From: Acidimicrobiia bacterium
Lineage (GTDB): Bacteria > Actinomycetota > Acidimicrobiia > Acidimicrobiales > VFJN01
Length of the DNA stretch: 37,773 bases
Reading direction: 5' to 3'
Assembly: GCA_050247895.1 (NCBI GenBank)
Contig: JBFWTJ010000002.1
Location: forward strand, 1 to 37,773
Part shown: positions 4,650 to 27,563 of the stretch, piece by piece
Position numbering within the stretch: position 1 is the first letter of the stretch
Layout of the letters: each line of letters opens with the position of its first letter
Notes under the pieces: model-generated
Database searches by the model: none
Told to the model about the DNA's origin: nothing
What the model saw: only the letters and a program-made list of their open reading frames with translations
Position numbers and translations under genes: made by a program

Positions 4650-5477
4650 CTAGCGGCTCGCTCGCGACGGCGGCGAGCCCGCCCGGTCCGGGGGCCGTGG
4701 CCCTCCGGGGCGAGGCGGCGTCTCGGGCTCCAGGACCGTGAAGCGGACCCCGCCGGTCAGGTCGCTGATCAGGTTGAACAGCAGGGCGAGGATGGCGTTG
4801 AAGGCCGAACCGGCCACCACGAGGATCAACCCGCCCAGCACCGCGGCCTCGAAGATCCGGTCGTCCTCGAACTGGAACTCCCCGACCAGCTCCTGGCCGG
4901 CGGGGCAGTCGTCGCCGTCCGAGTCGTCGGCGTCGGGCTCGGCCGCCGAGGGCGCCAGGGTCGTCGCGGCCGGGTCGGCGGGCGCCTCGACCGGCAGGCT
5001 GGTCGAGGTCGACGGGTCGCCGGCCGCGGCGTCGGGCTGGTCGACGGGCTGGCAGTTGCCGAAGCCGAGGGAGGTGACGAAGTCCTCGACCTGGTCGATC
5101 GTGCCGGCGTTGCGGGCCGTGCGCCACAGCAGCGTCGACGCGACGCAGACCATGAGGAACACGGCCAGGTAGAACAGGACCGAGATCTTCAGCACCGACC
5201 AGGGGTCGACGTGGCGGACGATCCGCTTGACCCGCCGGGCCCGGGTCCGCCGGCGACGGCCCAGGCGCCGGGACCGGTGCGGCTCCGGCGTCGCCTCGGC
5301 GGCTCGTGCCGCCTCGGCCGGGCGGCGACGGGGCGTCACCGGGCGCGACGGTGTCGGGGAGGGGCCCGGCGTGACGGGCGAGGCGGTGGGGACACCGACC
5401 TCGGTCCGTGGCTCACCCGACCCCAGCCGGGGGCTGGGCACGTCGGGGGCGCTGAGCCCCGGCTTCTCGGGCGCCAT
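4650..5477 (-). CDS. DUF3566 domain-containing membrane protein (Rv0007-like position downstream of gyrA)
   Basis: VKRIVRHVDPWSVLKISVLFYLAVFLMVCV... and ...GGLILVVAGSAFNAILALLFNLISDLTGGVRFTV match the two-TM DUF3566 pattern. The N-terminus is Pro/Arg-rich and disordered. Start taken at ATG 5475-5477 (MAPEKPG); the start is uncertain. Confidence 0.75.
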   Translation of the reverse strand: MAPEKPGLSAPDVPSPRLGSGEPRTEVGVPTASPVTPGPSPTPSRPVTPRRRPAEAARAAEATPEPHRSRRLGRRRRTRARRVKRIVRHVDPWSVLKISVLFYLAVFLMVCVASTLLWRTARNAGTIDQVEDFVTSLGFGNCQPVDQPDAAAGDPSTSTSLPVEAPADPAATTLAPSAAEPDADDSDGDDCPAGQELVGEFQFEDDRIFEAAVLGGLILVVAGSAFNAILALLFNLISDLTGGVRFTVLEPETPPRPGGPRPPDRAGSPPSRASR

Positions 5478-5514
5478 CGGAGCGAGACTAGTGGCGGCTC
5501 TCCCTGCACCGGGG

Positions 5515-5832
5515 TCACCGGCCCCGGCGGGCACGGGCCTCGGCCCGCGCCCCGCCCACCTCGACCTCCACGACCACGTCGGGCCCGGCGGCTGCGAAGT
5601 CGACCAGCCGGCCGCCGTTGGCCGCAGCCACCTCACGGGCCGCTCCCTCCCCCTCGGCCGCGCCGGCCAGGGCGGACAGGTCGGCCGCGGTGCGAGCGGC
5701 GGAGCGGGCCGACGCCGCCCGGGCCAGGGGCACCAGCGCGATGAGCAGCAGCCCGGTGATCGCGATCAGGGCGACGGCCAGGGGCAGGGCCTGCCCGGAC
5801 GAGTGGTGGTGAGCAGATCGATCGACGGGCAC
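5515..5832 (-). CDS. Rv3654c-family TadE-like (pilin-like) small membrane protein, tentative
   Basis: GTG start preceded by GGAGG (4-nt spacer). One TM helix (LPLAVALIAITGLLLIALV), then RTAADLSALAGAA...AAANGGRLVDF...DVVVEVEV...ARARRG, which resembles the TIGR03816-type TadE-like signature (AADxAALAAA ... NGA ... V.V.V). Confidence 0.5.
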   Translation of the reverse strand: MPVDRSAHHHSSGQALPLAVALIAITGLLLIALVPLARAASARSAARTAADLSALAGAAEGEGAAREVAAANGGRLVDFAAAGPDVVVEVEVGGARAEARARRGR

Positions 5833-8389: not shown

Positions 8390-10314
<1,925 letters not shown>

Positions 10315-16977: not shown

Positions 16978-17955
16978 GTGGAGTGGGTCGAGACCACGGC
17001 CAAGACGCTCGAGGAAGCCAAGGAGCTCGCCCTCGATCAGCTCGGCATCGACGACGACGACGCCGAGTTCGAGGTCGTCGAGGAGCCGCGCCCCGGCCTG
17101 TTCGGCCGGATGCGGGGCGAGGCCCGGGTCAGGGCGCGGGTGCGCCCGGTCCTGGCTCGACCCAAGGTCGAGCGACGCGACCGGCGCAAGGGGCGTGACG
17201 GCCGGGGCCGCGAGGGACGGTCGCACAAGAAGGACGACCGGCCCGGCGGCCGCCAGGAGGCGTCCCCCGGCGACGACACGGCGCCCGACAGCGCCGTCGA
17301 CACCGCCGACAACACGGTTGCGGAGACGCCGACCGCTGCCGACGAGGACCGTGGCCCGGACCGAGCCAGGACGTCCGAGCCCGTGGCGCGCGCCGGGCGC
17401 AAGGCCGCCCGCGCGCCCCGGGGCCGGGACCGCACCGGCGCCAGTCGCACCGCACACGAGGAAGAAGGATCGGAGGAGCCCGTGACCGAGCTCGAGCTAG
17501 CGGCGCAGGGGGAGGTCGTCCGGAACTTCCTGGGCGACCTCCTGGACGCCTTCGACGTGGATGGTGAGGTGACCCTGACCAACCCCGACGACCAGACGAT
17601 CGAGGCGGCGGTGACCGGGTCGGACCTGGGCCTGCTCATCGGGCCCAAGGGCCAGACGCTCCAGGCCGTCCAAGAGCTGTGCCGCAGCGTGGTCCAGCGC
17701 CAGCGGCCGGGCGAGAACCACGCCCGCCTGAGGGTGGACGTGGCCGGCTACCGGGAGCGGCGCCGTGAGGCCCTCGAGCGCTTCGCCCGGGACGTGGCGC
17801 AGCAGGTGAGGGACTCGGGCCAGCCCCGGGCCCTGGAGGCCATGCCGCCGCCGGATCGCAAGATCGTGCACGACGCCCTGAACGACGTGGAGGGCGTGGT
17901 GACCTCGTCGGAGGGCGAGGAGCCCCGCCGTCGGGTGGTGGTCTCCCCCGCGTGA
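16978..17955 (+). CDS. jag: Jag/KhpB-type RNA-binding protein (Jag_N, KH, R3H)
   Basis: GTG 16978 with GGAGG 7 nt upstream. VEWVETTAKTLEEAKELALDQLGI (Jag_N), LIGPKGQTLQAVQ (KH GxxG), DRKIVHDALNDVEGVVTSSEGEEPRRRVVV (R3H). Confidence 0.87.
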   Translation: MEWVETTAKTLEEAKELALDQLGIDDDDAEFEVVEEPRPGLFGRMRGEARVRARVRPVLARPKVERRDRRKGRDGRGREGRSHKKDDRPGGRQEASPGDDTAPDSAVDTADNTVAETPTAADEDRGPDRARTSEPVARAGRKAARAPRGRDRTGASRTAHEEEGSEEPVTELELAAQGEVVRNFLGDLLDAFDVDGEVTLTNPDDQTIEAAVTGSDLGLLIGPKGQTLQAVQELCRSVVQRQRPGENHARLRVDVAGYRERRREALERFARDVAQQVRDSGQPRALEAMPPPDRKIVHDALNDVEGVVTSSEGEEPRRRVVVSPA

Positions 17956-17966
17956 GGCAGGTGTCC

Positions 17967-17999
17967 GCAGGGATGCGCCGGTGAGCGGCGCATCCCTGC
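17967..17999 (+). promoter_or_regulatory. perfect 14-bp hairpin enclosing the rsmG start codon in its 5-nt loop
   Basis: GCAGGGATGCGCCG (17967-80) / GTGAG / CGGCGCATCCCTGC (17986-99). The loop GTG (17981-83) is the only in-frame start for rsmG. The weak SD AGGGA lies in the left arm. The jag stop is 12 nt upstream. Confidence 0.55.
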
Positions 18000-18583
18000 T
18001 CGAGGTGCTGGCGACCGGCCGCGAGCGGGGCTTCGTCGGTCCCACACCGTTCGAGGACCAGGTCGCCCACGCCGAGGGCTTCGTCGCCGCCCTCGAAGGC
18101 GTGGTCGGGAGGGTGGTCGACCTGGGCAGCGGTGGCGGCCTGCCCGGGCTCGTGGTTGCCGTGCGGCGACCCGACCTCGACGTGGTGCTGGTGGATGCCG
18201 TCGAGCGCCGCTGCACCTTCCTGGCCGAGGCGATCGAACGGCTGGGCCTGATCCGGGCGTCGACCTGGCACGGCCGGGCCGAGGACCTGGGCCGAGGTCC
18301 GCTCCGGGGTTCGGCCGGTGCGGTGACGGCACGGTCGTTCGGCCCACCGGCGGCCACCGCCGAGTGCGCTGCACCCCTCCTGCAGGTCGGTGGCGTGCTG
18401 GTGGTCAGCGAGCCGCCGGACGAGCGGGAGCGGTGGCCGGGCGAGGGCCTGGCCCTGCTCGGCCTCGAGCCCCGGTCGACGGTTGCCGAACCGTTCCACT
18501 ACCGGGTGCTCGTGCAGCGGGAGCTCTGCCCCGAGCGGTTCCCCCGGCGACCCGGTCTCCCCTTCCGCCGCCCGCTCTTCTGA
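17981..18583 (+). CDS. rsmG: 16S rRNA (guanine527-N7)-methyltransferase RsmG (GidB)
   Basis: 200 aa; SAM motif VVDLGSGGGLPGLVVA, plus the conserved position after jag. Confidence 0.87.
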   Translation: MSGASLLEVLATGRERGFVGPTPFEDQVAHAEGFVAALEGVVGRVVDLGSGGGLPGLVVAVRRPDLDVVLVDAVERRCTFLAEAIERLGLIRASTWHGRAEDLGRGPLRGSAGAVTARSFGPPAATAECAAPLLQVGGVLVVSEPPDERERWPGEGLALLGLEPRSTVAEPFHYRVLVQRELCPERFPRRPGLPFRRPLF

Positions 18584-18597
18584 TCCCCCGCTCGTCC

Positions 18598-18613
18598 TGT
18601 TCCACGTGGAACG
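18598..18613. promoter_or_regulatory. parS-like site 1 (TGTTCCACGTGGAACG)
   Basis: Perfect 14-bp palindrome GTTCCACGTGGAAC at 18599-18612; 14/16 to canonical tGTTTCACGTGAAACa, with symmetric T>C / A>G changes. It lies in the 34-nt convergent gap and is embedded in an outer inverted repeat CGTCCTG...CAGGACG. Confidence 0.6.
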
Positions 18614-18617
18614 TCGG

Positions 18618-20318
18618 TCAGGACGGGCGGAGCTGCCGGGCGATCTCGACCAGGATCGCCGGGTCGGATCCGCTGAGTCGGAAGGTGAGACCGGCTCGGT
18701 TCCACGTGACGTAGGCGGCGCGGGGGGCGGGCACGGGCGTGACGCCACGGAGCGGGTCGGAGGCACCGGGCTCGTTGGTCCAGGTGATGATGCCGGTGTC
18801 CGGTCCCCCGGTGGTCACCACCAGGGCGGTGGCCGTCGGCAGGTCGAGGGTTCGGGCCGGGCCGACCTCGTTGACGGACACGTCGTCCCAGGTCGTCACG
18901 GCCAGCTCGACGTCGGCGGTGGGATCCCCGTTGGTGAAGGTCGCCCCGAAGTAGGTGACCGTCCGGTCGTCGGTCGGGGTCCGGGAGGTGCGGTCGACCT
19001 CGTGCATGCCGGGGGGCGGCTCCAGGGCCAGGTCGGTGCCGTCGAAGGTCACGGATGCCGCCGCAGCGGCCAGGACCTCGGTGGTGAGGCCGTGGGCTGA
19101 CACGGTGACGAGGTCACCATCGGAGGAGACCCAGGCCAGGGTGGCGCGGCGACCCTCGTGGGTCAGCCCCGCGGGCCGGCCCGCCACCACGGTGCACTCC
19201 ACGGGTCGGTAGCCGTCGGGGACCTGGCAGTCGGGCTGGACCTCACCGCCCTGGCGGCCGACCGTGACGGCCAGGAGATGGCCTTCGACGGGGTCGATGT
19301 AGGTCACGTCGGCCGTCCAGCACGCTGATCCGGCCGGCTGGCGCTCCTGCACCGTGGTCGTGGCCGGCGCGGCCAGCCGGTAGCCGGCGGGCAACGATGC
19401 CGGGAGCTGCACCACCTGAGCCGCCTCCTCGGGTGTGGCGGGCCGGCTGGCCACCGCGCCGCAACCCTCACCGCCGTCGATGGTCGGGACCCGGATGAGG
19501 GCCAGGGCGGGGTCTCCCGATCCGCCGCCCCGGGATGCCACGACGACCACCGAGGTGACGACGACCGCCGCGGTGGCGACCAGCGCGACCACGAGGGGTC
19601 GCCGAGGAGGAGGGTTCTCGGCCGCCTGGTCCTCCCGCTCGCCGCTCGACCGTGGTCGGACAGTCGGGGACGGAGCCTGACGGGCCGATCCGGATGCAGC
19701 CAGGCGGAAGCGAGGGCGTGGAACGGGCCGTCCGGCGTCCACCCGGCCTCGGACGACCTCGCCGCCGGGGTCCTGGGCATCGTCGGACGGGTTGGACCGG
19801 TGTTCGGGCTTCGCTGGGAGACCGGTCTCGGTGTCGGGGGCCGGCCCGCGCCCGGACAGCGGTTCGACGTGGCGGCTCCGTGCGGCGGTCGTGGGGTTCG
19901 ACCCGTGGTCGACGGTCGTCTGGAGACGAGCCGGGTCGTTGTCGGGGGCGTCGCCGTCGTCCGGCTCCCCTGACTGGAGCGCGGCGGTCATGGGGCGACG
20001 GGTTGCTTCGGCATCGGGGTGGTGGGCATCGGGGGAGGGGCTCGACCGGTGCTCGGGGGTCGCGTGTCGTGGACGGGTCGAGGGTTCCGGGCGGTCCGGC
20101 GCGCTCGAGCTGGGGAGGGCCGCACGGGAGGAGCGGCGGCCCGTCTCGGATGGGTCCTGGAGGGGACGCTCGGTGCGCCGGGTTCCTCGGCGACGTCGAT
20201 GGCCGGCCGGCGTGCCGGCCTGTCGGATGATGGCATCGAGGGCGTCGGGGCGGGTCGTGGTGGTTCGGGCGGCGTCGGCGAGGGCCGCCGCCAGCCGTGC
20301 GGTGAGGTCAGTGGTCAT
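18618..20318 (-). CDS. anti-sigma-factor-like single-pass membrane protein with long disordered cytoplasmic region and two DUF4367-like extracytoplasmic repeats
   Basis: ATG 20316-20318 (MTTDLTARLAAALADAA...) overlaps the sigma gene end by 11 nt. TM helix PLVVALVATAAVVVTSVVVVAS. The ectodomain has LPASLPAGYRL...ATLAWVSSDGDLVTVSAHGLTTEVLAAAAASV and ...AAYVTWNRAGLTFRLSGSDPAILVEIARQL, typical of anti-sigma C-terminal domains. Confidence 0.65.
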   Translation of the reverse strand: MTTDLTARLAAALADAARTTTTRPDALDAIIRQAGTPAGHRRRRGTRRTERPLQDPSETGRRSSRAALPSSSAPDRPEPSTRPRHATPEHRSSPSPDAHHPDAEATRRPMTAALQSGEPDDGDAPDNDPARLQTTVDHGSNPTTAARSRHVEPLSGRGPAPDTETGLPAKPEHRSNPSDDAQDPGGEVVRGRVDAGRPVPRPRFRLAASGSARQAPSPTVRPRSSGEREDQAAENPPPRRPLVVALVATAAVVVTSVVVVASRGGGSGDPALALIRVPTIDGGEGCGAVASRPATPEEAAQVVQLPASLPAGYRLAAPATTTVQERQPAGSACWTADVTYIDPVEGHLLAVTVGRQGGEVQPDCQVPDGYRPVECTVVAGRPAGLTHEGRRATLAWVSSDGDLVTVSAHGLTTEVLAAAAASVTFDGTDLALEPPPGMHEVDRTSRTPTDDRTVTYFGATFTNGDPTADVELAVTTWDDVSVNEVGPARTLDLPTATALVVTTGGPDTGIITWTNEPGASDPLRGVTPVPAPRAAYVTWNRAGLTFRLSGSDPAILVEIARQLRPS

Positions 20319-20817
20319 CGGTGAGCTCTCCGGCGAGTTGGGCGCGGGCACGTGACAGCAGGGACTTGACGGTGCCGGGCCGGCAGCCGAGCGCGTAGGC
20401 GATGTCGGCTTCGGACCAGTCGGCGAAGTAGCGGAGGACGATGGCGGCGCGCTGGCGCAGGGGCAGCCGGCCCACCGCATCCATCACCGAGATCGTGTCG
20501 GGATCGGTCCAGGCCGGGGGTTGCGGCGGCAGTCGTTCGGCGTAGCGCCGCTCGGTGGCGCGTCGGCGCACCCAGGAGGTGCACCGACTCATGACGGCCC
20601 GGCTGAGGTAGGCGTCGGGGGACCGGAGGGCGCCGAACCGCCGACAGAGGTCGGCGAACGCGTCCTGCACGAGCTCCTCGGCCAGGGCGTTGGAGCCGGT
20701 CGTGAGGCGGGCGATCTCGACCAGGGACCGGTAGCGGCCCCGGTAGACGTCGACGAAGGTCCGTCCGGTCTCCGGCCCTGCTCCGGGCGGGATCACAGGT
20801 GGGAGGGGCGAGGTCAC
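20308..20817 (-). CDS. ECF-type RNA polymerase sigma-70 family factor
   Basis: Region 2 AEELVQDAFADLCRRFGALRSPDAYLSRAV and region 4 LPLRQRAAIVLRYFADWSEADIAYALGCRPGTVKSLLSRARAQL. Start is either GTG 20817 or GTG 20796. The 477-aa ORF extension is rejected. Confidence 0.85.
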   Translation of the reverse strand: MTSPLPPVIPPGAGPETGRTFVDVYRGRYRSLVEIARLTTGSNALAEELVQDAFADLCRRFGALRSPDAYLSRAVMSRCTSWVRRRATERRYAERLPPQPPAWTDPDTISVMDAVGRLPLRQRAAIVLRYFADWSEADIAYALGCRPGTVKSLLSRARAQLAGELTDDH

Positions 20818-21397
20818 ACCCGGTCTGGCGCCTGTCGCCCGCGATCGGTTCCCTCGGTCGGCCGGATCCCGTCGCGAGTCCGCACGATCTCCCCCGGTGT
20901 GGCGTCGCCCCACGGTCGGGAGCCTCTCAGAGCCCAGGTGTCGCGAGGTCACTCCCATGCGCGGAGGAGCGAACGGCGGGCCGCCCTTGTCGGCGTTGCA
21001 TCCTCCGCCGGAGCCAGCGGCCGTCATCGTGCGGTGACCTGCCGCTCCGGGGTGACGAGGAGGGCCGTGACGCGATCGCGCCGGTCGCTGGGCCGACCAC
21101 CTCACCGCGCCTGCGCCTCTTCGGCCATGCCGGCTCCACGTCACTCGGCGCAGCGGCTCCTTCACGAGGCGGCTGTCGCGACCCATGAGGTCGCGACGTC
21201 CCTGCTGCAGTGGCGTGGAGGGGCGCGTGCACCCCGCGCAACTCCGCGACCTGGTGTTCTCCACCGGTGCACGTGCTGTTGCAGTCGCGCGTGAGCGCCG
21301 GCGCGTGGCCGTCGGGCTGGTCAGCGCCGTGACTGCGGCTGCCCCGCCCTTGGGCACCTGCCGGCCGCCATGGGCCGTGCACGCACCACAGGGGCGA

Positions 21398-21413
21398 CGT
21401 TCCACGTGGAACA
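21398..21413. promoter_or_regulatory. parS-like site 2 (CGTTCCACGTGGAACA)
   Basis: Perfect 14-bp palindrome at 21399-21412. With flanks, 21395-21415 is the exact reverse complement of 18596-18616 (CCTGTTCCACGTGGAACGTCG). Confidence 0.6.
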
Positions 21414-21463
21414 GGGGCCGCCGGGACCTCGGGCACTTGCTTCGGCGCAGCCGGTCAGAGGGA

Positions 21464-21573
21464 TGTGGCAGAGGGCTCCGCTGCAATCCCTGTTGATGCG
21501 TCCAGGCGAAGCGGTCGAGCGCGTTCTCGGCCGACGAGTGTGGCCAGGGCTCCGCTGCAATCCCTGTTGATGC
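21464..21573 (+). repeat. two 36/35-nt direct repeats separated by a 39-nt unique spacer
   Basis: TGTGGCAGAGGGCTCCGCTGCAATCCCTGTTGATGC (21464-21499) and TGTGGCCAGGGCTCCGCTGCAATCCCTGTTGATGC (21539-21573). A 28-nt core is identical (21472-99 = 21546-73). Each has an internal CAGGG/CCCTG pairing potential. Confidence 0.9.
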
Positions 21574-21781
21574 CCCGAACAGGTCAAGACCCGTCCTCGT
21601 TCGATCCGGAGCACGCCGGTGGCTGAGCTCGCTCTCGGTCGATGTCGGCACCGCCGTGACCGGGGCTCGCGGTGCCACTGCACGGGACGGCCCCGGGGAC
21701 CCTGTTGCCGTAGGTCCTGGGCGTGCCCGCTTCGAGAGCACGGCCGGCCGGGGGAGGACGAGGCTCTACCACTCCGGCGGT

Positions 21782-21795
21782 GCTCCACGTGGAAC
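21782..21795. promoter_or_regulatory. parS-like site 3 (GCTCCACGTGGAAC), 66 nt upstream of the proposed parA start
   Basis: 13/14 match to the local palindrome, and shares the right flank GTCG with sites 1 and 2. Confidence 0.5.
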
Positions 21796-21861
21796 GTCGC
21801 GGAGATTCGAGCGGAGGTCAAGGGTTGCTTGCTTGTGGCCGAGCGGGAGGGGCAGGATGCC

Positions 21862-22986
21862 GTGGTGACCGAACCTCCTGACAGTGCGGTCGAGCGGAGC
21901 CACGCGATCTTCGAGCGGATCCGGGCCGACCGTCAGGTGGACGAGCCACCGGCCGCCGGAGCCGCGTCGCCGGCGCCCGGCGAGCAGCACGCGGTGGCCG
22001 AGGCGGGCGACGATCGCCCGGAGTCGGAGACTTCCCCGTCGATCCCCAGCAACGTGCCGCGACCCCTCCCCGGCGCGGCCGATCTCCCGGCCTCCCTGGT
22101 CGCAGAGCCCGAAGTGCCTGCCGCCGACGCCTCGGACGAGGTCGACGAGCCGGCCGAGGTCGAGTCCATGGAGGCCACGGGCACGGGTGCTTCGCACTTC
22201 GCCCGTCCGCTGCCCCGGATCCTGGCCATCGCCAACCAGAAGGGCGGGGTGGGCAAGACGACCACCGCCGTGAACCTCGGCGCATCGCTGGCTGACCTCG
22301 GCTACCGGGTCCTCGTCGTCGACCTCGATCCCCAGGGCAACGCCAGCACCGGGCTGGGCATCAACATCCGCGACCTCCACGGGTCGATGTACGACGTCAT
22401 CCTCCACGACCTGCCCATCGAGGACTGCATCGAGGCGACCTCGGTCCGGAACCTGTTCGTGGCCCCTTCGTCCCTCGACCTCGCCGGCGCCGAGATCGAG
22501 CTCGTGCCGGCCTTCAGCCGGGAGCAGCGGCTCAAGCGGGCGCTGGAGGAGGTCCGTGACGACTACGACTTCGTCCTGATCGACTGCCCGCCGTCCCTGG
22601 GCCTGCTGACCGTCAACGCCCTGGCCGCGGCGACCGAGATCGTGGTGCCGATCCAGTGCGAGTACTACGCCCTCGAAGGTCTGGGCCAGCTCCTGCGCAA
22701 CGTCGGGCTGGTCCAGAAGAACCTCAACTCCACCCTCGAGGTCAGCGCCATCGTCCTGGTCATGTACGACGCCCGGACCAAGCTGGCCGACCAGGTCGTG
22801 CAGGAGGTCCGGGGCCACTTCGGTGACAAGGTGTGCCGGAACGTCATCCCTCGGACGGTCCGCCTCTCCGAGGCGCCGTCCTTCGGGCAGCCGATCATCG
22901 CGTTCGATTCGTCCTCCCGAGGCGCCATCGCCTACCGGGAGCTGGCCAAGGAGGTGAGCGGTGGTCCGCCGCAGCGGGTTGGGTAG
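21862..22986 (+). CDS. parA: ParA/Soj chromosome-partitioning ATPase with acidic N-terminal extension
   Basis: Deviant Walker A AIANQKGGVGKTTTAVNL, VLVVDLDPQGN, DFVLIDCPPSLG. Start proposed at GTG 21862 (GGGAGG 11 nt upstream). GTG 21835 or other in-frame starts are possible; the ORF is open from 21619. Confidence 0.92.
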   Translation: MVTEPPDSAVERSHAIFERIRADRQVDEPPAAGAASPAPGEQHAVAEAGDDRPESETSPSIPSNVPRPLPGAADLPASLVAEPEVPAADASDEVDEPAEVESMEATGTGASHFARPLPRILAIANQKGGVGKTTTAVNLGASLADLGYRVLVVDLDPQGNASTGLGINIRDLHGSMYDVILHDLPIEDCIEATSVRNLFVAPSSLDLAGAEIELVPAFSREQRLKRALEEVRDDYDFVLIDCPPSLGLLTVNALAAATEIVVPIQCEYYALEGLGQLLRNVGLVQKNLNSTLEVSAIVLVMYDARTKLADQVVQEVRGHFGDKVCRNVIPRTVRLSEAPSFGQPIIAFDSSSRGAIAYRELAKEVSGGPPQRVG

Positions 22987-23860
22987 AGGCCTGGGGGCGC
23001 TGATCCCGACCGAGACGACGGGATCGGCGCCCTCGGCGCTGCGCGAGGTCCCGGTCAACGCCATCGTGCCCAACCCCCACCAGCCTCGGAGCTACTTCGA
23101 CGAGGAGTCCCTGGCCGGGCTCACGGCGTCGATCGCCGAGCTGGGCGTGCTCCAGCCCCTGCTGGTCCAGGCGGCCGACGACGACCGCTACGAGCTCATC
23201 GCGGGGGAGCGGCGCTGGCGAGCGGCCAAGCGGGCCGGCCTCCAGGTCGTGCCGGTCGTGGTGCGCGACCTCAGCGCGGAGGGCTCGCTCGAGGTCGCGC
23301 TGGTCGAGAACCTCCACCGCGACGACCTGAACCCCCTGGAGGAGGCGGCGGCCTACCAGCAGCTCGTCGAGGACTTCGAGCTGACCCAGGAGCAGGTCGC
23401 CCGGCGGGTGGGCAAGTCACGCTCGGCGGTGGCCAACGTGCTGCGACTGCTCCAGCTCCCGCCGGCCATCCAGAAGATGCTGGCCGAGGGCCAGTTGACG
23501 GCCGGGCACGCCAAGGCCCTGCTCGGCACGCCGGACCGCGCCTTCCAGGAGGCCCTCGCGCGTCGCGTGGTGGGCGAGGGACTTTCCGTGCGGGACGTGG
23601 AGGAGGCGGTCCGGCTCCGAGGCGGGCTGGCCGACGCCGATGGGGCGCAGGCCGCACCGTCCGTCCCGGCAGAGGGCGGCGCAACCCGCCGCTTGCGGCC
23701 TCCGGGCCTGCTGGAGCTGGAGGAGCTCCTGGCCGAGCACCTGGCCACCCGGGTCAAGGTCGAGATGGGGGCCAGCCGGGGCAAGGTCACCGTCGACTTC
23801 GCCACCCTCGAGGATCTGGAGCGGATCTACCGGGCCATGACCGAGGGCCGCCCGACCTGA
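22961..23860 (+). CDS. parB: ParB/Spo0J partition protein
   Basis: GTG 22961 with AGGAGG 6 nt upstream, overlapping the parA end by 26 nt. [10 protein letters not shown], arginine patch [39 protein letters not shown]. Confidence 0.93.
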
Positions 23861-25918: not shown

Positions 25919-26977
25919 TCAGAGCGTGCGTCGGGCCACCGTCGCGCAGGTCAGCGCGTCGAGCACCAGGACCTGGCGCGCCGACGTGCCCGTCGACAGG
26001 TGCACCTCCACCGCGACCCCGTCGAGGTCGGCCCGGCCGAGCAGCGTCCAGCCCGATCCGACACGAGCGGCGCATGCAGCCGCCGCCGTGGAGGTGAGGG
26101 CCTCGCCGTCCTCGGAGGCCACGCCGCCGGCGCCGGTCGCGGCATCGGGTGGGACGGCCCCGACCGCGTCGAGCAGGTCGTCGGCGTCGGCGAAGGTCCC
26201 CAGCGCCGCTGCGCCGTCGTCGTTCGAGGACGCCTCGCCCGTGCTGCCCTCCGGGGCCGCCGCGGTGGCGTCGAGGGCCTCCTCCCGCGCCGCGCCGCCG
26301 GCAGCCGAGCCACCGCTGGCCGAGTCAGCCGCGGCCCCGGCCGACTCGGCGGCGGTCTCGCGCCCGTCGCCGCCGCGGTCGAGCAGCGGCACGGCCAGGG
26401 CCACGAGGGCCAGCACCGCGGCGACGCCCGCCACCCAGCGCAGGTCGAGGCTCCCGGGCCACCCCCGCCGGGCCAGCGGGACGACGACGCCGTCGCCGGC
26501 CTCCTGGCCGGAGGTGCCGACCGCGCCGATGGTCGTGCCGGGCGCACCCGCACCGGTCGTGGCGCCGGACCCGTCCAGGTCGGCGGGAGCGTCCCCCGCC
26601 GGTGCACCGCGGTGCGACCGGGTGGCCGGAGCGTCGGTCCCGGGGATGCCGTCGCCCGCGTCGGCTCGGGCGGTCCGGAGCTTCCCGTCGCCCGCGTCGG
26701 CCGGCACGGGCGCGGGGGAGGTCCTGCCGTCCGAGCCGGTCCGGCCGTCGACCGGACCCGCCGTCGCGGCCAGCGCGGCGGCGATGGCCTGCTCGCGGGC
26801 GCTGTCGTCGTGGTCGACCGGCGGCAGCGAGCGCAGGGCCGCGGCGACCGCCCGCATCGCCGCGACGCGGGCGAGCAGGTCGTCGTCGGCTTCCACCGCG
26901 GCCGCCTCCTCCGCGCTCAGCGCGCCGTCGAGGTAGGCCGAGGCGAGCTCGTCTCTCGGGTCGAGGTCGTCGTTCAT
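25919..26977 (-). CDS. anti-sigma factor (single-pass, Ala/Gly/Asp-rich), partner of the upstream ECF sigma
   Basis: ATG 26975-26977 overlaps the sigma TGA (ATGA). MNDDLDPRDELASAYLDGALSAEEAAAVEADDDLLARVAAMRAV is a typical anti-sigma N-terminal helix region. TM helix WVAGVAAVLALVALAVPLL. Confidence 0.7.
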   Translation of the reverse strand: MNDDLDPRDELASAYLDGALSAEEAAAVEADDDLLARVAAMRAVAAALRSLPPVDHDDSAREQAIAAALAATAGPVDGRTGSDGRTSPAPVPADAGDGKLRTARADAGDGIPGTDAPATRSHRGAPAGDAPADLDGSGATTGAGAPGTTIGAVGTSGQEAGDGVVVPLARRGWPGSLDLRWVAGVAAVLALVALAVPLLDRGGDGRETAAESAGAAADSASGGSAAGGAAREEALDATAAAPEGSTGEASSNDDGAAALGTFADADDLLDAVGAVPPDAATGAGGVASEDGEALTSTAAAACAARVGSGWTLLGRADLDGVAVEVHLSTGTSARQVLVLDALTCATVARRTL

Positions 26978-27563
26978 GGGCGTTCGTTCTGACGTCGGGG
27001 AGGGGTCGGCGGGTTCCCGGCGGCCAGGTGCCGGGACAGCTGGGCCCGGCCCCGGGCGATGCGCGACCGCACGGTGCCGGGCGGGATGTCCAGGACCTCG
27101 CCGATCTCGGCGTAGTCGAGGTCGCACAGGTCGCGCAGCACCACCGCGACCCGGAAGTCGTCGGGCAGCTCGGCCAGCGCCCGCCGCACGTCGATCCGGT
27201 CGGCGACCCCGTCGGGCCCCGGCGCCACCCCGGACGGTCCCACGAGCGGCCAGTCCTCGGTGGCCCGGGGCTCGGGCCGCCGTCGCCGGCGGCGCAGCTC
27301 GTCGAGGCAGGCGTTGGTCGCGATCCGGTAGGTCCAGGTGGAGAAGGCCGAGCGCCCGTCGAAGCGGTCCAGGCCGCGCACGATGGCCACCAGGGCGTCC
27401 TGGGTCGCGTCGTCGGCGTCGGCGTCGTTGCCGCACACCCGCCGGCACAGGGCGCGGATGCGGTCGTGGTGCCGCCGCAGCAGCACTTCGAGGGCACGGC
27501 GGTCGCCCTGGCGCGCCGCGGCCACCAGGGCGCGGTCGTCCAGGGCCGAGGTCCGCGGGTCGG

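What the first reader, a model, noticed from the sequence alone, without database searches (positions are those of the whole stretch)
20818..21861. About 1 kb with no credible CDS between the inserted ECF sigma gene and parA
Most adjacent gene pairs in this window are separated by under 100 nt or overlap by a few nt, apart from the two origin-region gaps. This 1,044-nt stretch has only Arg/Pro/Ser/Cys-rich six-frame ORFs. In a 60-nt sample of the frame continuing the sigma ORF, 15/20 third positions were G/C, and a 76-codon plus-strand candidate (GTG 21067) had about 77% GC3. Three 60-nt lines counted by hand are 62-65% GC, against about 70% in a parA line. The stretch is dense in structure: two parS-like palindromes, the 35/36-nt direct repeats, GTCGCGAC x2 (21175-82 / 21190-97), and GCGCGTGCACC (21223-33) pairing with GGTGCACGTGC (21266-76). 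It could be a ParB nucleation zone, one or more structured ncRNAs, or a decayed gene.
Basis: partly seen in the sequence, partly recalled or inferred. Interest (0 to 1): 0.7.

Follow-up and report, generated by a model that had tools for sequence, protein, structure and literature searches.

The report
Non-coding parS spacer upstream of parA
The 1-kb stretch is a real gene-free spacer in front of the chromosome-partition genes; it holds two ParB docking sites (parS) and the parA promoter, while the rest is unconserved filler, so it is largely ordinary.

Summary
Window 20818-21864 is the longest stretch of the contig without codon periodicity, and no protein, Pfam, NCBIfam or Rfam match was found in it.

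The window is the oriC-side region of a 74% GC Acidimicrobiia genome (Aquihabitans/Iamia-like). Most relatives have rsmG about 110-450 nt from parA. Here an extra ECF sigma/anti-sigma pair sits between them.

Three things in the gap can be read:
- **Two parS sites.** They are at 21398-21413 and 21781-21796, with a third at 18598-18613. They are the GTTCCACGTGGAAC variant. In 69 related loci, 91% of such sites lie in the rsmG-parA interval.
- **A clade-conserved promoter.** It lies just downstream of the proximal parS: TTGCTT, 18 nt, CAGGAT, 6 nt, then GTG 21865. This implies a leaderless parA mRNA.
- **A pair of perfect 28-nt direct repeats** (36/35 nt extended, 74 nt apart). They have no other copy anywhere searched and no explanation.

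The remaining ~850 nt is not conserved and is not more structured than coding DNA. The one exception is a candidate element at 21095-21290 (z = -3.06), which is within the background range.

The "ParB nucleation zone" reading is partly right. The "decayed gene" and "dense structured RNA" readings are unsupported. Several relatives also carry 1-2 kb repeat-rich, gene-free parS regions upstream of parA.

The parts
20818..21864 (.). Gene-free divergent intergenic interval between the ECF sigma gene (minus strand) and parA (plus strand)
   Evidence: No codon periodicity. No Pfam or NCBIfam hit. No protein homologue. No Rfam family.
21398..21413 (.). parS2, CGTTCCACGTGGAACA (the 14-nt palindrome is exact)
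   Evidence: It is the commonest parS variant in the rsmG-parA intervals of 69 Acidimicrobiia loci.
21781..21796 (.). parS3, TGCTCCACGTGGAACG (one mismatch in the 14-mer). It is the parA-proximal site, 32 nt upstream of the -35 hexamer
18598..18613 (.). parS1, TGTTCCACGTGGAACG. It lies 15 nt after the rsmG stop, outside the finding, on the far side of the inserted sigma cassette
   Evidence: It is identical to the Myxococcus xanthus parS listed in PMC7022226 Table 1. It is in the same position as the first parS of L001, L002 and L082.
21829..21834 (+). -35 hexamer TTGCTT of the parA promoter
   Evidence: The pattern TTGNNN-N16-19-NANNAT-N5-8-start lies downstream of the proximal parS in 29 of 68 loci, against 0.3 in shuffles.
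21853..21858 (+). -10 hexamer CAGGAT, 6 nt before the GTG start codon. This implies a leaderless parA transcript
   Evidence: CAGGAT-N6-GTGAC is identical in L001, L082 and L083.
21865..22986 (+). parA, with a conserved N-terminal extension of about 115 aa
   Evidence: Pfam AAA_31/CbiA. The N-terminus MTEPxD...AIF.R is shared with P0007 and P0012.
21464..21499 (+). Direct repeat copy 1 (36 nt; the perfect 28-mer is 21472-21499). Function unknown
21539..21573 (+). Direct repeat copy 2 (35 nt; the perfect 28-mer is 21546-21573). Function unknown
   Evidence: The flanks are unrelated.
21095..21290 (+). Candidate folded element. It includes the hairpin GTCGCGACC-CATGA-GGTCGCGAC (21175-21197) and the stem GCGCGTGCACC/GGTGCACGTGC. 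Low confidence
   Evidence: MFE -101.6 kcal/mol, z = -3.06, matched by 1 of 200 shuffles. The coding background minimum is z = -3.18. No relatives are available for a covariation test.
20308..20817 (-). Inserted ECF sigma factor gene. Its best family match is the SigE family (TIGR02983), below the cutoff
18618..20318 (-). 566-aa membrane protein gene downstream of the sigma gene, overlapping its stop. A putative anti-sigma or partner protein with no family match
22961..23860 (+). parB
   Evidence: Pfam ParB_N, HTH_ParB and ParB_C.

Best explanation
The interval is a genuinely non-coding, divergent intergenic region.

Its recognisable functional content is the chromosomal centromere and the parA control region. 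Two parS palindromes (21398-21413 and 21781-21796, plus a third at 18598-18613) are the loading sites where ParB dimers nucleate the partition complex. Immediately downstream of the proximal parS lies a sigma-70-type promoter (TTGCTT, 18 nt, CAGGAT). Its -10 hexamer ends 6 nt before GTG 21865, so parA is most likely transcribed as a leaderless mRNA. ParB bound at parS3 sits just upstream of the -35 hexamer.

The ancestral rsmG-parS-parS-promoter-parA spacer of about 110-450 nt was split by insertion of an ECF sigma/membrane-protein cassette between parS sites. It was further expanded by lineage-specific DNA. That DNA is not conserved, not coding and not unusually structured. It presumably also carries the promoter of the sigma operon near 20818-20860.

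Status of each step:
- Shown: absence of coding signal and homologues, identity and positional conservation of parS, conservation of the promoter pattern, and the insertion.
- Inferred: ParB binding, the transcription start, and lack of function of the filler.
For: - No periodicity, and the longest non-periodic run of the contig.
- ORFs have non-coding composition.
- The open frame is no longer than chance allows.
- No hit in Pfam or NCBIfam, in 5.8 billion proteins with a six-frame query, in 1.84 billion representatives with the 308-aa frame, in 80 relatives' loci by translated search, or in plasmids and phages by blastn.
- parS: three sites, all in the rsmG-parA interval.
- In 69 related loci, 121 of 133 parS-like sites lie in that interval, which is 4.5% of the bases. 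GTTCCACGTGGAAC is the commonest form, at 53 of 121.
- The same 16-mer is the documented M. xanthus parS (PMC7022226).
- Blastn of the gap against relatives recovers only the two parS sites.
- Promoter: 29 of 68 loci carry TTGNNN-N16-19-NANNAT-N5-8-start within 110 nt after the proximal parS, against 0.3 in shuffles. The window matches with GTG 21865, in frame with parA.
- The ParA N-terminus is conserved.
- Insertion: rsmG abuts parA in L001, L002 and L082-L084 and in most other loci. The conserved SigM-like sigma is still present elsewhere in the window.
Against: - About 850 nt have no assigned role, and bacteria rarely keep 1 kb of functionless DNA.
- The perfect 28-nt repeats with unrelated flanks suggest some constraint or a recent event that this account does not explain.
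- One 196-nt segment folds better than 199 of 200 shuffles.
- No relative is close enough to test conservation of the filler: the best ParA match is 74% identical. 'Not conserved' therefore rests on distant genomes.
- ParB binding and the transcription start are not measured.
- The -35 hexamer TTGCTT is weaker than the clade's usual TTGACC.
Confidence: 0.7

Rival explanations
1. Decayed gene(s). The gap would be the eroded remnant of one or more genes that arrived with the sigma cassette or preceded it.
For: - GC of the gap (72%) is close to the coding average rather than to the lower values of short intergenic spacers, which are 64-68%.
- One frame stays open for 316 codons.
- The adjacent 566-aa gene also has a long stretch of flat periodicity. 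Flat periodicity alone therefore does not exclude coding for disordered protein.
Against: - No homologue at any threshold.
- The open frame is matched in 19% of shuffles, and the total stop count equals expectation (22 against 23.0).
- No local phase-switching periodicity.
- Arg/Pro/Ser/Cys content is twice that of real proteins.
Confidence: 0.1
2. One or more structured non-coding RNAs are transcribed from the gap. An example would be a ~190-nt element at 21095-21290 on the plus strand.
For: - 21095-21290(+) has an MFE of -101.6 kcal/mol and z = -3.06, with three nested or adjacent stems including a perfect 9-bp hairpin.
- The minus strand has z = -2.17.
Against: - No Rfam family, even at E up to 10.
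- Gap-wide z-scores are not lower than those of coding DNA, and the background minimum is -3.18 in 46 windows.
- No promoter- or terminator-like sites.
- The region with the 28-nt repeats folds no better than shuffles, z = +0.35 and +0.43.
- No homologous sequences, so no covariation test is possible.
Confidence: 0.1
3. The two 28-nt (36/35-nt) perfect repeats are functional cis elements. They could be binding sites for an unidentified DNA-binding protein acting on parA or on segregation. Alternatively they form a two-repeat orphan CRISPR-like unit (repeat-spacer-repeat, 39-nt spacer).
For: - Perfect identity over 28 nt with unrelated flanks.
- The 74-nt spacing is about 7 helical turns.
- The geometry is compatible with repeat-spacer-repeat.
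- rsmG-parA intervals of relatives are about 10-fold enriched for local exact repeats: roughly 19 of 41 pairs fall in 4% of the sequence.
Against: - There are only two copies, and no further copy in the window at up to 9 mismatches.
- No copy in 84 loci of relatives.
- No array in JGI metagenomes. The single 24-nt hit, L081, overlaps an FNR-type box TTGATGCGGATCAA in an unrelated 64% GC contig and is probably chance.
- The repeat is absent from IMG/VR and so is the spacer.
- No cas genes in 37.8 kb.
- No palindrome or stable hairpin in the repeat.
Confidence: 0.12

Closest known systems
Chromosomal ParABS centromere sites (parS) near oriC. Examples: B. subtilis and C. glutamicum TGTTNCACGTGAAACA; M. 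smegmatis, 3 sites; M. xanthus TGTTCCACGTGGAACG (PMC7022226 Table 1; PMC7083940)
   Same: - The 16-bp palindrome is of the same consensus. parS1 is identical to the M. xanthus sequence.
- The sites are origin-proximal and intergenic.
- They lie next to parAB, with a canonical ParB (ParB_N, HTH_ParB, ParB_C).
- There are several sites per cluster.
   Different: - Binding is not shown for this organism.
- The sites are separated by an inserted sigma cassette and by several hundred nt of unconserved DNA.
- Close relatives have a compact spacer of about 110 nt.
Leaderless sigma-70-type promoters of Actinobacteria
   Same: A -35 TTGNNN hexamer, a 17-18-nt spacer and a -10 NANNAT hexamer, with the start codon 6-7 nt after the -10, so that transcription would begin at the A/GTG.
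   Different: It is inferred from sequence conservation only. Here the promoter is coupled to an immediately upstream parS, an arrangement conserved across the clade.
Streptomyces coelicolor parAB upstream region with two promoters and nearby parS sites
   Same: A long regulatory region upstream of parA in the rsmG(gidB)-parA interval of a high-GC actinobacterium, with parS sites nearby.
   Different: No evidence here for a second promoter or developmental control. The length arises from an insertion and from unconserved filler.
Iterated plasmid centromeres, such as F sopC with 43-bp repeats (recalled)
   Same: Some relatives carry 6-7 parS copies, in L010 embedded in repeat units of roughly 70-300 nt start-to-start (often ~140) and in L017 as scattered sites. 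L008 has three such units spaced 137-140 nt.
   Different: The window itself has only two isolated parS sites in the gap, and its 28-nt repeats contain no parS.

Membership tests
Chromosomal parS (ParB-binding centromere site) | 16-bp palindrome matching TGTTNCACGTGAAACA or its GC-rich variant TGTTCCACGTGGAACG | tested here: met
   21398 CGTTCCACGTGGAACA has 1 mismatch, 21781 TGCTCCACGTGGAACG has 2, and 18598 TGTTCCACGTGGAACG has 1, counted against TGTTCCACGTGGAACA. The consensus is taken from PMC7022226.
Chromosomal parS (ParB-binding centromere site) | Origin-proximal location next to parAB, with a canonical ParB encoded nearby | tested here: met
   dnaA lies 7 kb away. ParB has ParB_N, HTH_ParB and ParB_C domains. 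ParA has AAA_31.
Chromosomal parS (ParB-binding centromere site) | Site conserved at the orthologous position in related genomes | tested here: met
   121 of 133 parS-like sites in 69 loci lie in the rsmG-parA interval. The only blastn matches of the gap to relatives are the parS sites.
Chromosomal parS (ParB-binding centromere site) | ParB occupancy and spreading in vivo or in vitro | not testable with these tools
   Needs ChIP-seq or EMSA.
Protein-coding gene or recent pseudogene | Codon-position GC periodicity typical of this genome (GC3 of at least 0.85, GC2 of at most 0.6) | tested here: not met
Protein-coding gene or recent pseudogene | Detectable homologue or domain in any frame | tested here: not met
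Known structured RNA family (Rfam 15) | Covariance-model match at or near the gathering score | tested here: not met
   Only a tRNA at 4562 matches in the whole window. Within 20600-22000 the best matches have E of 1.8-7.2, far below gathering scores.
Novel structured RNA | Folding energy significantly below shuffles, and covariation in relatives | tested here: inconclusive
   One segment reaches z = -3.06, but this is within the background range. Covariation cannot be tested because no homologues were found.
CRISPR array | Three or more regularly spaced repeats with unique spacers | tested here: not met
   Only two copies.
CRISPR array | cas genes nearby, or the same repeat in other arrays | tested here: not met
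   No cas domain in the window. The repeat is absent from metagenome and viral collections except for one unrelated hit.
Sigma-70-type leaderless promoter | -35 and -10 hexamers at 16-19-nt spacing, with the start codon 5-8 nt after the -10, conserved in relatives | tested here: met
   29 of 68 loci against 0.3 in shuffles. The window has TTGCTT-18-CAGGAT-6-GTG. The generic consensus scan found nothing, because the -10 hexamer is CAGGAT.
Sigma-70-type leaderless promoter | Mapped transcription start at the start codon | not testable with these tools
   Needs dRNA-seq or 5' RACE.

The most novel reading that the evidence does not exclude
Part of the Acidimicrobiia may have evolved enlarged, gene-free, repeat-rich 'regional centromeres' upstream of parA. 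Examples are Aquihabitans sp. G128, with more than 2 kb without coding signal and 99-nt tandem repeats, and L010, L008 and L017, with 5-7 parS sites in 1.2-1.7 kb.

On this reading the window's 1-kb gap is such a region. The perfect 28-nt repeats, and possibly the folded 21095-21290 segment, would be lineage-specific cis elements that recruit a second factor. An untranscribed platform for sliding ParB clamps is another possibility. The neighbouring ECF sigma might couple the region to envelope stress.
Probability: 0.08. Interest if true: 0.55.

Novelty: new member of a known kind. Interest (0 to 1): 0.25.

Why it matters
The result gives a correct annotation of this locus.
- parA starts at GTG 21865, not at position 22210 where the protein collection's entry for this contig (P0008) begins.
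- parA has a conserved N-terminal extension of about 115 aa and a leaderless promoter tied to the proximal parS.
- There are three parS sites.
- The sigma cassette is an extra insertion.

The result also shows that parS followed by a leaderless parA promoter is a conserved module across Acidimicrobiia, a class with almost no experimental genetics. The rsmG-parA interval there is a hotspot for insertions and repeat expansion. For the gap itself the message is mostly negative: there is no hidden gene and no known RNA.

Tried and rejected
- **Hidden or decayed gene.** Tested with a frame plot, ORF composition, a stop-codon shuffle test, Pfam, NCBIfam, translated search against 80 relatives' loci, a six-frame query against 5.8 billion proteins, and exhaustive phmmer of the 308-aa frame. 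All were negative. The first homologue search, with the 477-aa sigma-plus-extension ORF, returned only sigma-domain hits at about 30% coverage.
- **Known RNA.** Rfam at gathering scores and at E up to 10, plus ARAGORN, gave nothing in the gap.
- **General structure excess.** Rejected by a z-score scan against the coding background.
- **Generic promoter and terminator scan, and TRF.** Nothing found.
- **Mobile-element, plasmid or phage origin.** Blastn 'distant' gave one 52-nt chance hit in plasmids and none in phages.
- **CRISPR reading of the 28-nt repeats.** No third copy, no cas genes, no array elsewhere, and no protospacer in IMG/VR.
- **The single metagenome hit, L081.** It is an unrelated 64% GC contig where the match overlaps an FNR-type box, so I treat it as chance.
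- **Tandem-duplication origin of the 74-nt unit.** The flanks are not similar, P = 0.07 and 0.39.
- **parS2 module as a duplicate of the parS3-promoter module.** The flanks are not similar, P = 0.6 and 0.8.
- **Nucleotide alignment of the gap with relatives.** Impossible. The closest ParA is 74% identical, and the expanded intervals of L003, L004 and L009 share no similarity with the window or with each other.
- **Looking up the contig's own gene calls.** This failed, because P0008 is not on record.
Full report
**Context**

The window is a whole 37,773-nt contig with 74.1% GC. Its gene order is typical of an actinobacterial origin region:
- gyrA, gyrB, recF, dnaN and dnaA on the minus strand
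- yidC, jag and rsmG (17903-18583) on the plus strand
- a 566-aa membrane-protein ORF (18618-20318, minus strand)
- an ECF sigma gene (20308-20817, minus strand)
- the gap
- parA and parB (plus strand)
- trxA and trxB (minus strand)

ParA relatives in GTDB representative genomes are all Acidimicrobiia. They include Aquihabitans, Iamia and many MAGs. The best matches are 68% identical over the full length and 87% in the core. In a 5.8-billion-protein collection the best full-length match is 74%. No genome close enough for nucleotide alignment of non-coding DNA is therefore available.

**Check of the observation**

A frame plot shows strong codon periodicity in the sigma gene (GC3 0.88-0.97) and in parA. 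Between about 20820 and 21780 the three phases are flat, at 0.63-0.80. Scanned over the whole contig, this is the longest non-periodic run.

All ORFs of at least 25 codons in the gap have non-coding-like codon-position GC. They are 29-58% Arg+Pro+Ser+Cys, against 17-20% in gyrA, parB and dnaA. The frame that continues the sigma ORF stays open for 316 codons. An open stretch that long occurs in 19% of dinucleotide shuffles, and the total stop count (22) equals expectation (23.0).

Three details need correction:
- The gap is 72.1% GC, and only three 60-nt lines are at 62-65%.
- The GTG-21067 ORF has GC3 of 0.68, not 0.77.
- The gap is not 'dense in structure'. In 120-nt windows on both strands its mean folding z-score is -0.11, against -0.47 for coding controls.

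**Is anything encoded?**

Every protein search was negative:
- Pfam and NCBIfam on every sizeable ORF hit only the sigma and ParA parts.
- A translated search of all six frames against 80 relatives' loci gave nothing below E = 0.26.
- A concatenated six-frame query against 5.8 billion proteins gave no hit at E up to 10 among 8,000 word-sharing candidates. That collection holds at least one protein of this contig (P0008). An ORF from the gap held there should have matched, which suggests that none was called in the gap.
- Exhaustive phmmer of the 308-aa sigma-continuing frame against 1.84 billion representatives gave one low-complexity hit at E = 1.3e-4.

The RNA and DNA searches were also negative:
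- Rfam finds only a tRNA elsewhere, and nothing credible in the gap even at E up to 10.
- ARAGORN finds no tRNA or tmRNA in the gap, and the consensus scans find no promoter- or terminator-like site and no tandem repeat.
- Blastn against plasmids and phages is empty apart from one 52-nt chance match.

**What can be read: parS**

GTTCCACGTGGAAC occurs exactly at 18599 and 21399, and with one mismatch at 21782. These are the only such sites in the contig, apart from one 2-mismatch match (33494) that the consensus scan also lists; that scan found four against 0.46 expected.

In 69 related loci that contain both rsmG and parA, 121 of 133 parS-like sites lie in the rsmG-parA interval, which is 4.5% of the bases. 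GTTCCACGTGGAAC is the commonest variant, at 53 of 121. Blastn of the gap against all relatives recovers essentially only these two sites, at positions 100-500 nt upstream of their parA.

The 16-mer at 18598 is identical to the parS listed for Myxococcus xanthus. The general consensus is TGTTNCACGTGAAACA (PMC7022226). C. glutamicum parS sites are likewise mostly intergenic (PMC7083940).

**What can be read: the parA promoter and start**

Homologues that cover 99-100% of my 374-aa ParA begin MTEPSDD...AIFKRL or MTDPSDD...AIFQRL, matching V/M-TEPPDS...AIFERI from GTG 21865. The N-terminal extension of about 115 aa is therefore real. The contig's own automatic call (P0008, 258 aa, starting at 22210) is truncated.

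In L001, L002 and L082 the whole rsmG-parA spacer is only about 110-120 nt. Its order is rsmG stop, parS, about 30 nt, parS, about 15 nt, TTGNNN, 17 nt, CAGGAT/CATGAT, 6-9 nt, GTG.

Across 68 loci with a proximal parS, 29 contain TTGNNN-N16-19-NANNAT-N5-8-start within 110 nt. Shuffles give 0.3 (maximum 3). The window matches as follows:
- TTGCTT at 21829-21834
- an 18-nt spacer
- CAGGAT at 21853-21858
- 6 nt
- GTG at 21865, in frame with parA

With the start codon 6-7 nt after the -10 hexamer, the transcript would begin at the start codon, giving a leaderless mRNA. This step is inferred from general knowledge of actinobacterial promoters, not measured. ParB bound at parS3 would sit 32 nt upstream of the -35 hexamer, so autoregulation is possible but untested.

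**The insertion**

In most relatives rsmG is followed directly by parA. The window still has the clade's conserved SigM-like sigma (26974-27560, minus strand) with a zf-HC2 anti-sigma downstream of trxB (compare L082). The sigma/566-aa pair between rsmG and parA is therefore an additional insertion.

The cassette lies between parS1 and parS2. Relatives with two parS about 35-45 nt apart suggest that it landed between pre-existing sites. The sigma profile match starts at residue 19, so GTG 20817 is a sensible start. A GGAAC at 20852-20848 (minus strand), 17 nt upstream of CGCC and about 30 nt from the start codon, is a weak candidate ECF-type promoter. This last point is my reading and has low confidence.

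**What remains unexplained**

The perfect 28-mer AGGGCTCCGCTGCAATCCCTGTTGATGC occurs at 21472 and 21546. With one indel it extends to 36 and 35 nt. The evidence on it is as follows:
- The flanks are unrelated.
- There is no third copy in the window, even at 9 mismatches, and none in 84 fetched loci.
- There is none in IMG/VR.
- JGI metagenomes give one 24-nt hit, in an unrelated 64% GC contig. There it overlaps a perfect FNR-type box TTGATGCGGATCAA that the window copies lack. I treat this as chance.
- The intervening 'spacer' has no match in IMG/VR.
- No cas gene is in the contig.
- The repeat region folds no better than shuffles.

One segment, 21095-21290 on the plus strand, folds with z = -3.06. 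However, the minimum among 46 coding control windows was -3.18, and covariation cannot be tested.

**Clade-level pattern**

Expanded, gene-free rsmG-parA intervals recur in this class:
- Aquihabitans sp. G128 (L004) has about 2.2 kb without periodicity or Pfam hits. It has parS pairs at both ends, a 99-nt tandem repeat and seven copies of a 23-mer containing GACGCGTCCGCGGACGCG.
- L003 and L009 have 3.4-4 kb intervals with weak or patchy periodicity.
- L008, L020, L017 and L038 have 1.2-1.7 kb non-periodic runs.
- L008 and L010 carry 5-7 parS copies in repeat units — spaced 137-140 nt in L008 and about 70-300 nt (often ~140) in L010 — and L017 has 6 parS sites in ~1.25 kb.
- These intervals share no sequence with one another or with the window beyond parS.
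- Of 41 exact direct-repeat pairs of at least 20 nt within 400 nt of each other, found in 1.47 Mb, about 19 lie in these intervals.

The window's gap and its 28-nt repeats therefore fit a pattern of insertion- and duplication-prone centromere-proximal DNA. They are not a singular oddity.

**Verdict**

The gap is real and non-coding. About 190 nt of it is accounted for: two parS sites, the parA promoter, and probably the sigma promoter. The rest has no detectable conservation, homology or significant structure. One unexplained repeat pair and one marginal folded segment remain.

The finding is a new member of a known kind, namely a parS-bearing regulatory spacer upstream of parAB that has been enlarged by an insertion. 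Interest is low to moderate.

Noticed in passing
window 21865-22209 (parA 5' part); collection entry P0008 starts at 22210: The protein collection's entry for this contig's ParA is 258 aa and starts at CTG 22210. Homologues show a conserved N-terminal extension of about 115 aa (MTEPxD...AIFxRL) starting at GTG 21865. The automatic call is therefore truncated, and an annotation based on it would show a 1.4-kb gap.
   Followed up: yes
L026, L033, L034, L036, L038, L042, L044, L047, L048, L049, L058, L061, L065, about 60-90 nt after the parA-proximal parS: In 13 related loci the leaderless start after the conserved promoter opens a mini-ORF of exactly 9 codons. Its peptide is not conserved. Its stop overlaps the ATG of the next ORF (TGATG or TAATG), which begins MRIRRRD, MRGRRRG or MAIFKK. 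This looks like termination-reinitiation coupling of a leaderless mini-ORF to the following ORF, which I presume to be parA although I did not check its frame against the ParA core. The window lacks it.
   Followed up: partly
L004 7160-9990 (Aquihabitans sp. G128, NZ_CP077604.1): This is a 2.8-kb rsmG-parA interval, of which a 2.2-kb run lacks codon periodicity, with no Pfam hit. It has parS pairs at both ends (7503/7566 and 9730/9801). It also has a 99-nt tandem repeat (8442-8813) and seven copies of GGTGACGCGTCCGCGGACGCGCC.
   Followed up: partly
L010 8504-9680; L008 8368-9670; L017 about 500-1200: These loci carry 5-7 parS copies upstream of parA. In L010 they sit in repeat units spaced about 70-300 nt (several near 140), and in L008 three units are spaced 137-140 nt, resembling an iterated centromere. 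L017 has 6 scattered sites that were not tested for units.
   Followed up: partly
window 25919-27560 (minus strand): A second ECF sigma (Sigma70_r2/r4_2; about 26974-27560) lies here with a zf-HC2 anti-sigma (25919 to about 27000) downstream of trxB. This is the position conserved in relatives such as L082. The window therefore has two ECF sigma cassettes within 7 kb.
   Followed up: yes
window 19531-20430 (N-terminal half of the 566-aa ORF, minus strand): About 290 residues before the single transmembrane helix are Arg/Pro/Ser-rich and show almost no codon periodicity, although the ORF is probably real. The protein has no Pfam or NCBIfam match.
   Followed up: partly
window 5203-5298: ARAGORN calls a 96-nt 'tRNA-Pro (ggg)' here. 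Rfam does not support it, and it lies inside a DUF3566-family ORF (4650-5765, minus strand). It is probably a false positive.
   Followed up: partly
L081 4409-4450 (Ga0207640_10000009): This is the only database match to the 28-nt repeat (24 nt exact). It lies in the intergenic region of an unrelated 64% GC contig and overlaps a perfect FNR/CRP-type box TTGATGCGGATCAA. By my reading of the sequence, a minus-strand gene that appears to encode a CBS-domain protein starts just to its left (not checked against Pfam). It is probably a coincidence.
   Followed up: partly
window 21132-21145 and 21211-21222; 18698-18713: These are half-parS-like sequences. GCTCCACGTCACT shares 9 nt with the left half of parS3, and its near-inverted partner is AGTGGCGTGGAG. 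Together they form the outer stem of the 21095-21290 fold. GGTTCCACGTGACGTA lies inside the 3' end of the 566-aa ORF. They may be decayed parS copies.
   Followed up: no
window 20943-20952 versus 20808-20817: The 10-mer GCGAGGTCAC is the reverse complement of the sigma start context GTGACCTCGC. It recurs 135 nt upstream in the same frame, giving an alternative in-frame GTG at 20952. The added 45 codons are Arg-rich and lack coding composition.
   Followed up: no
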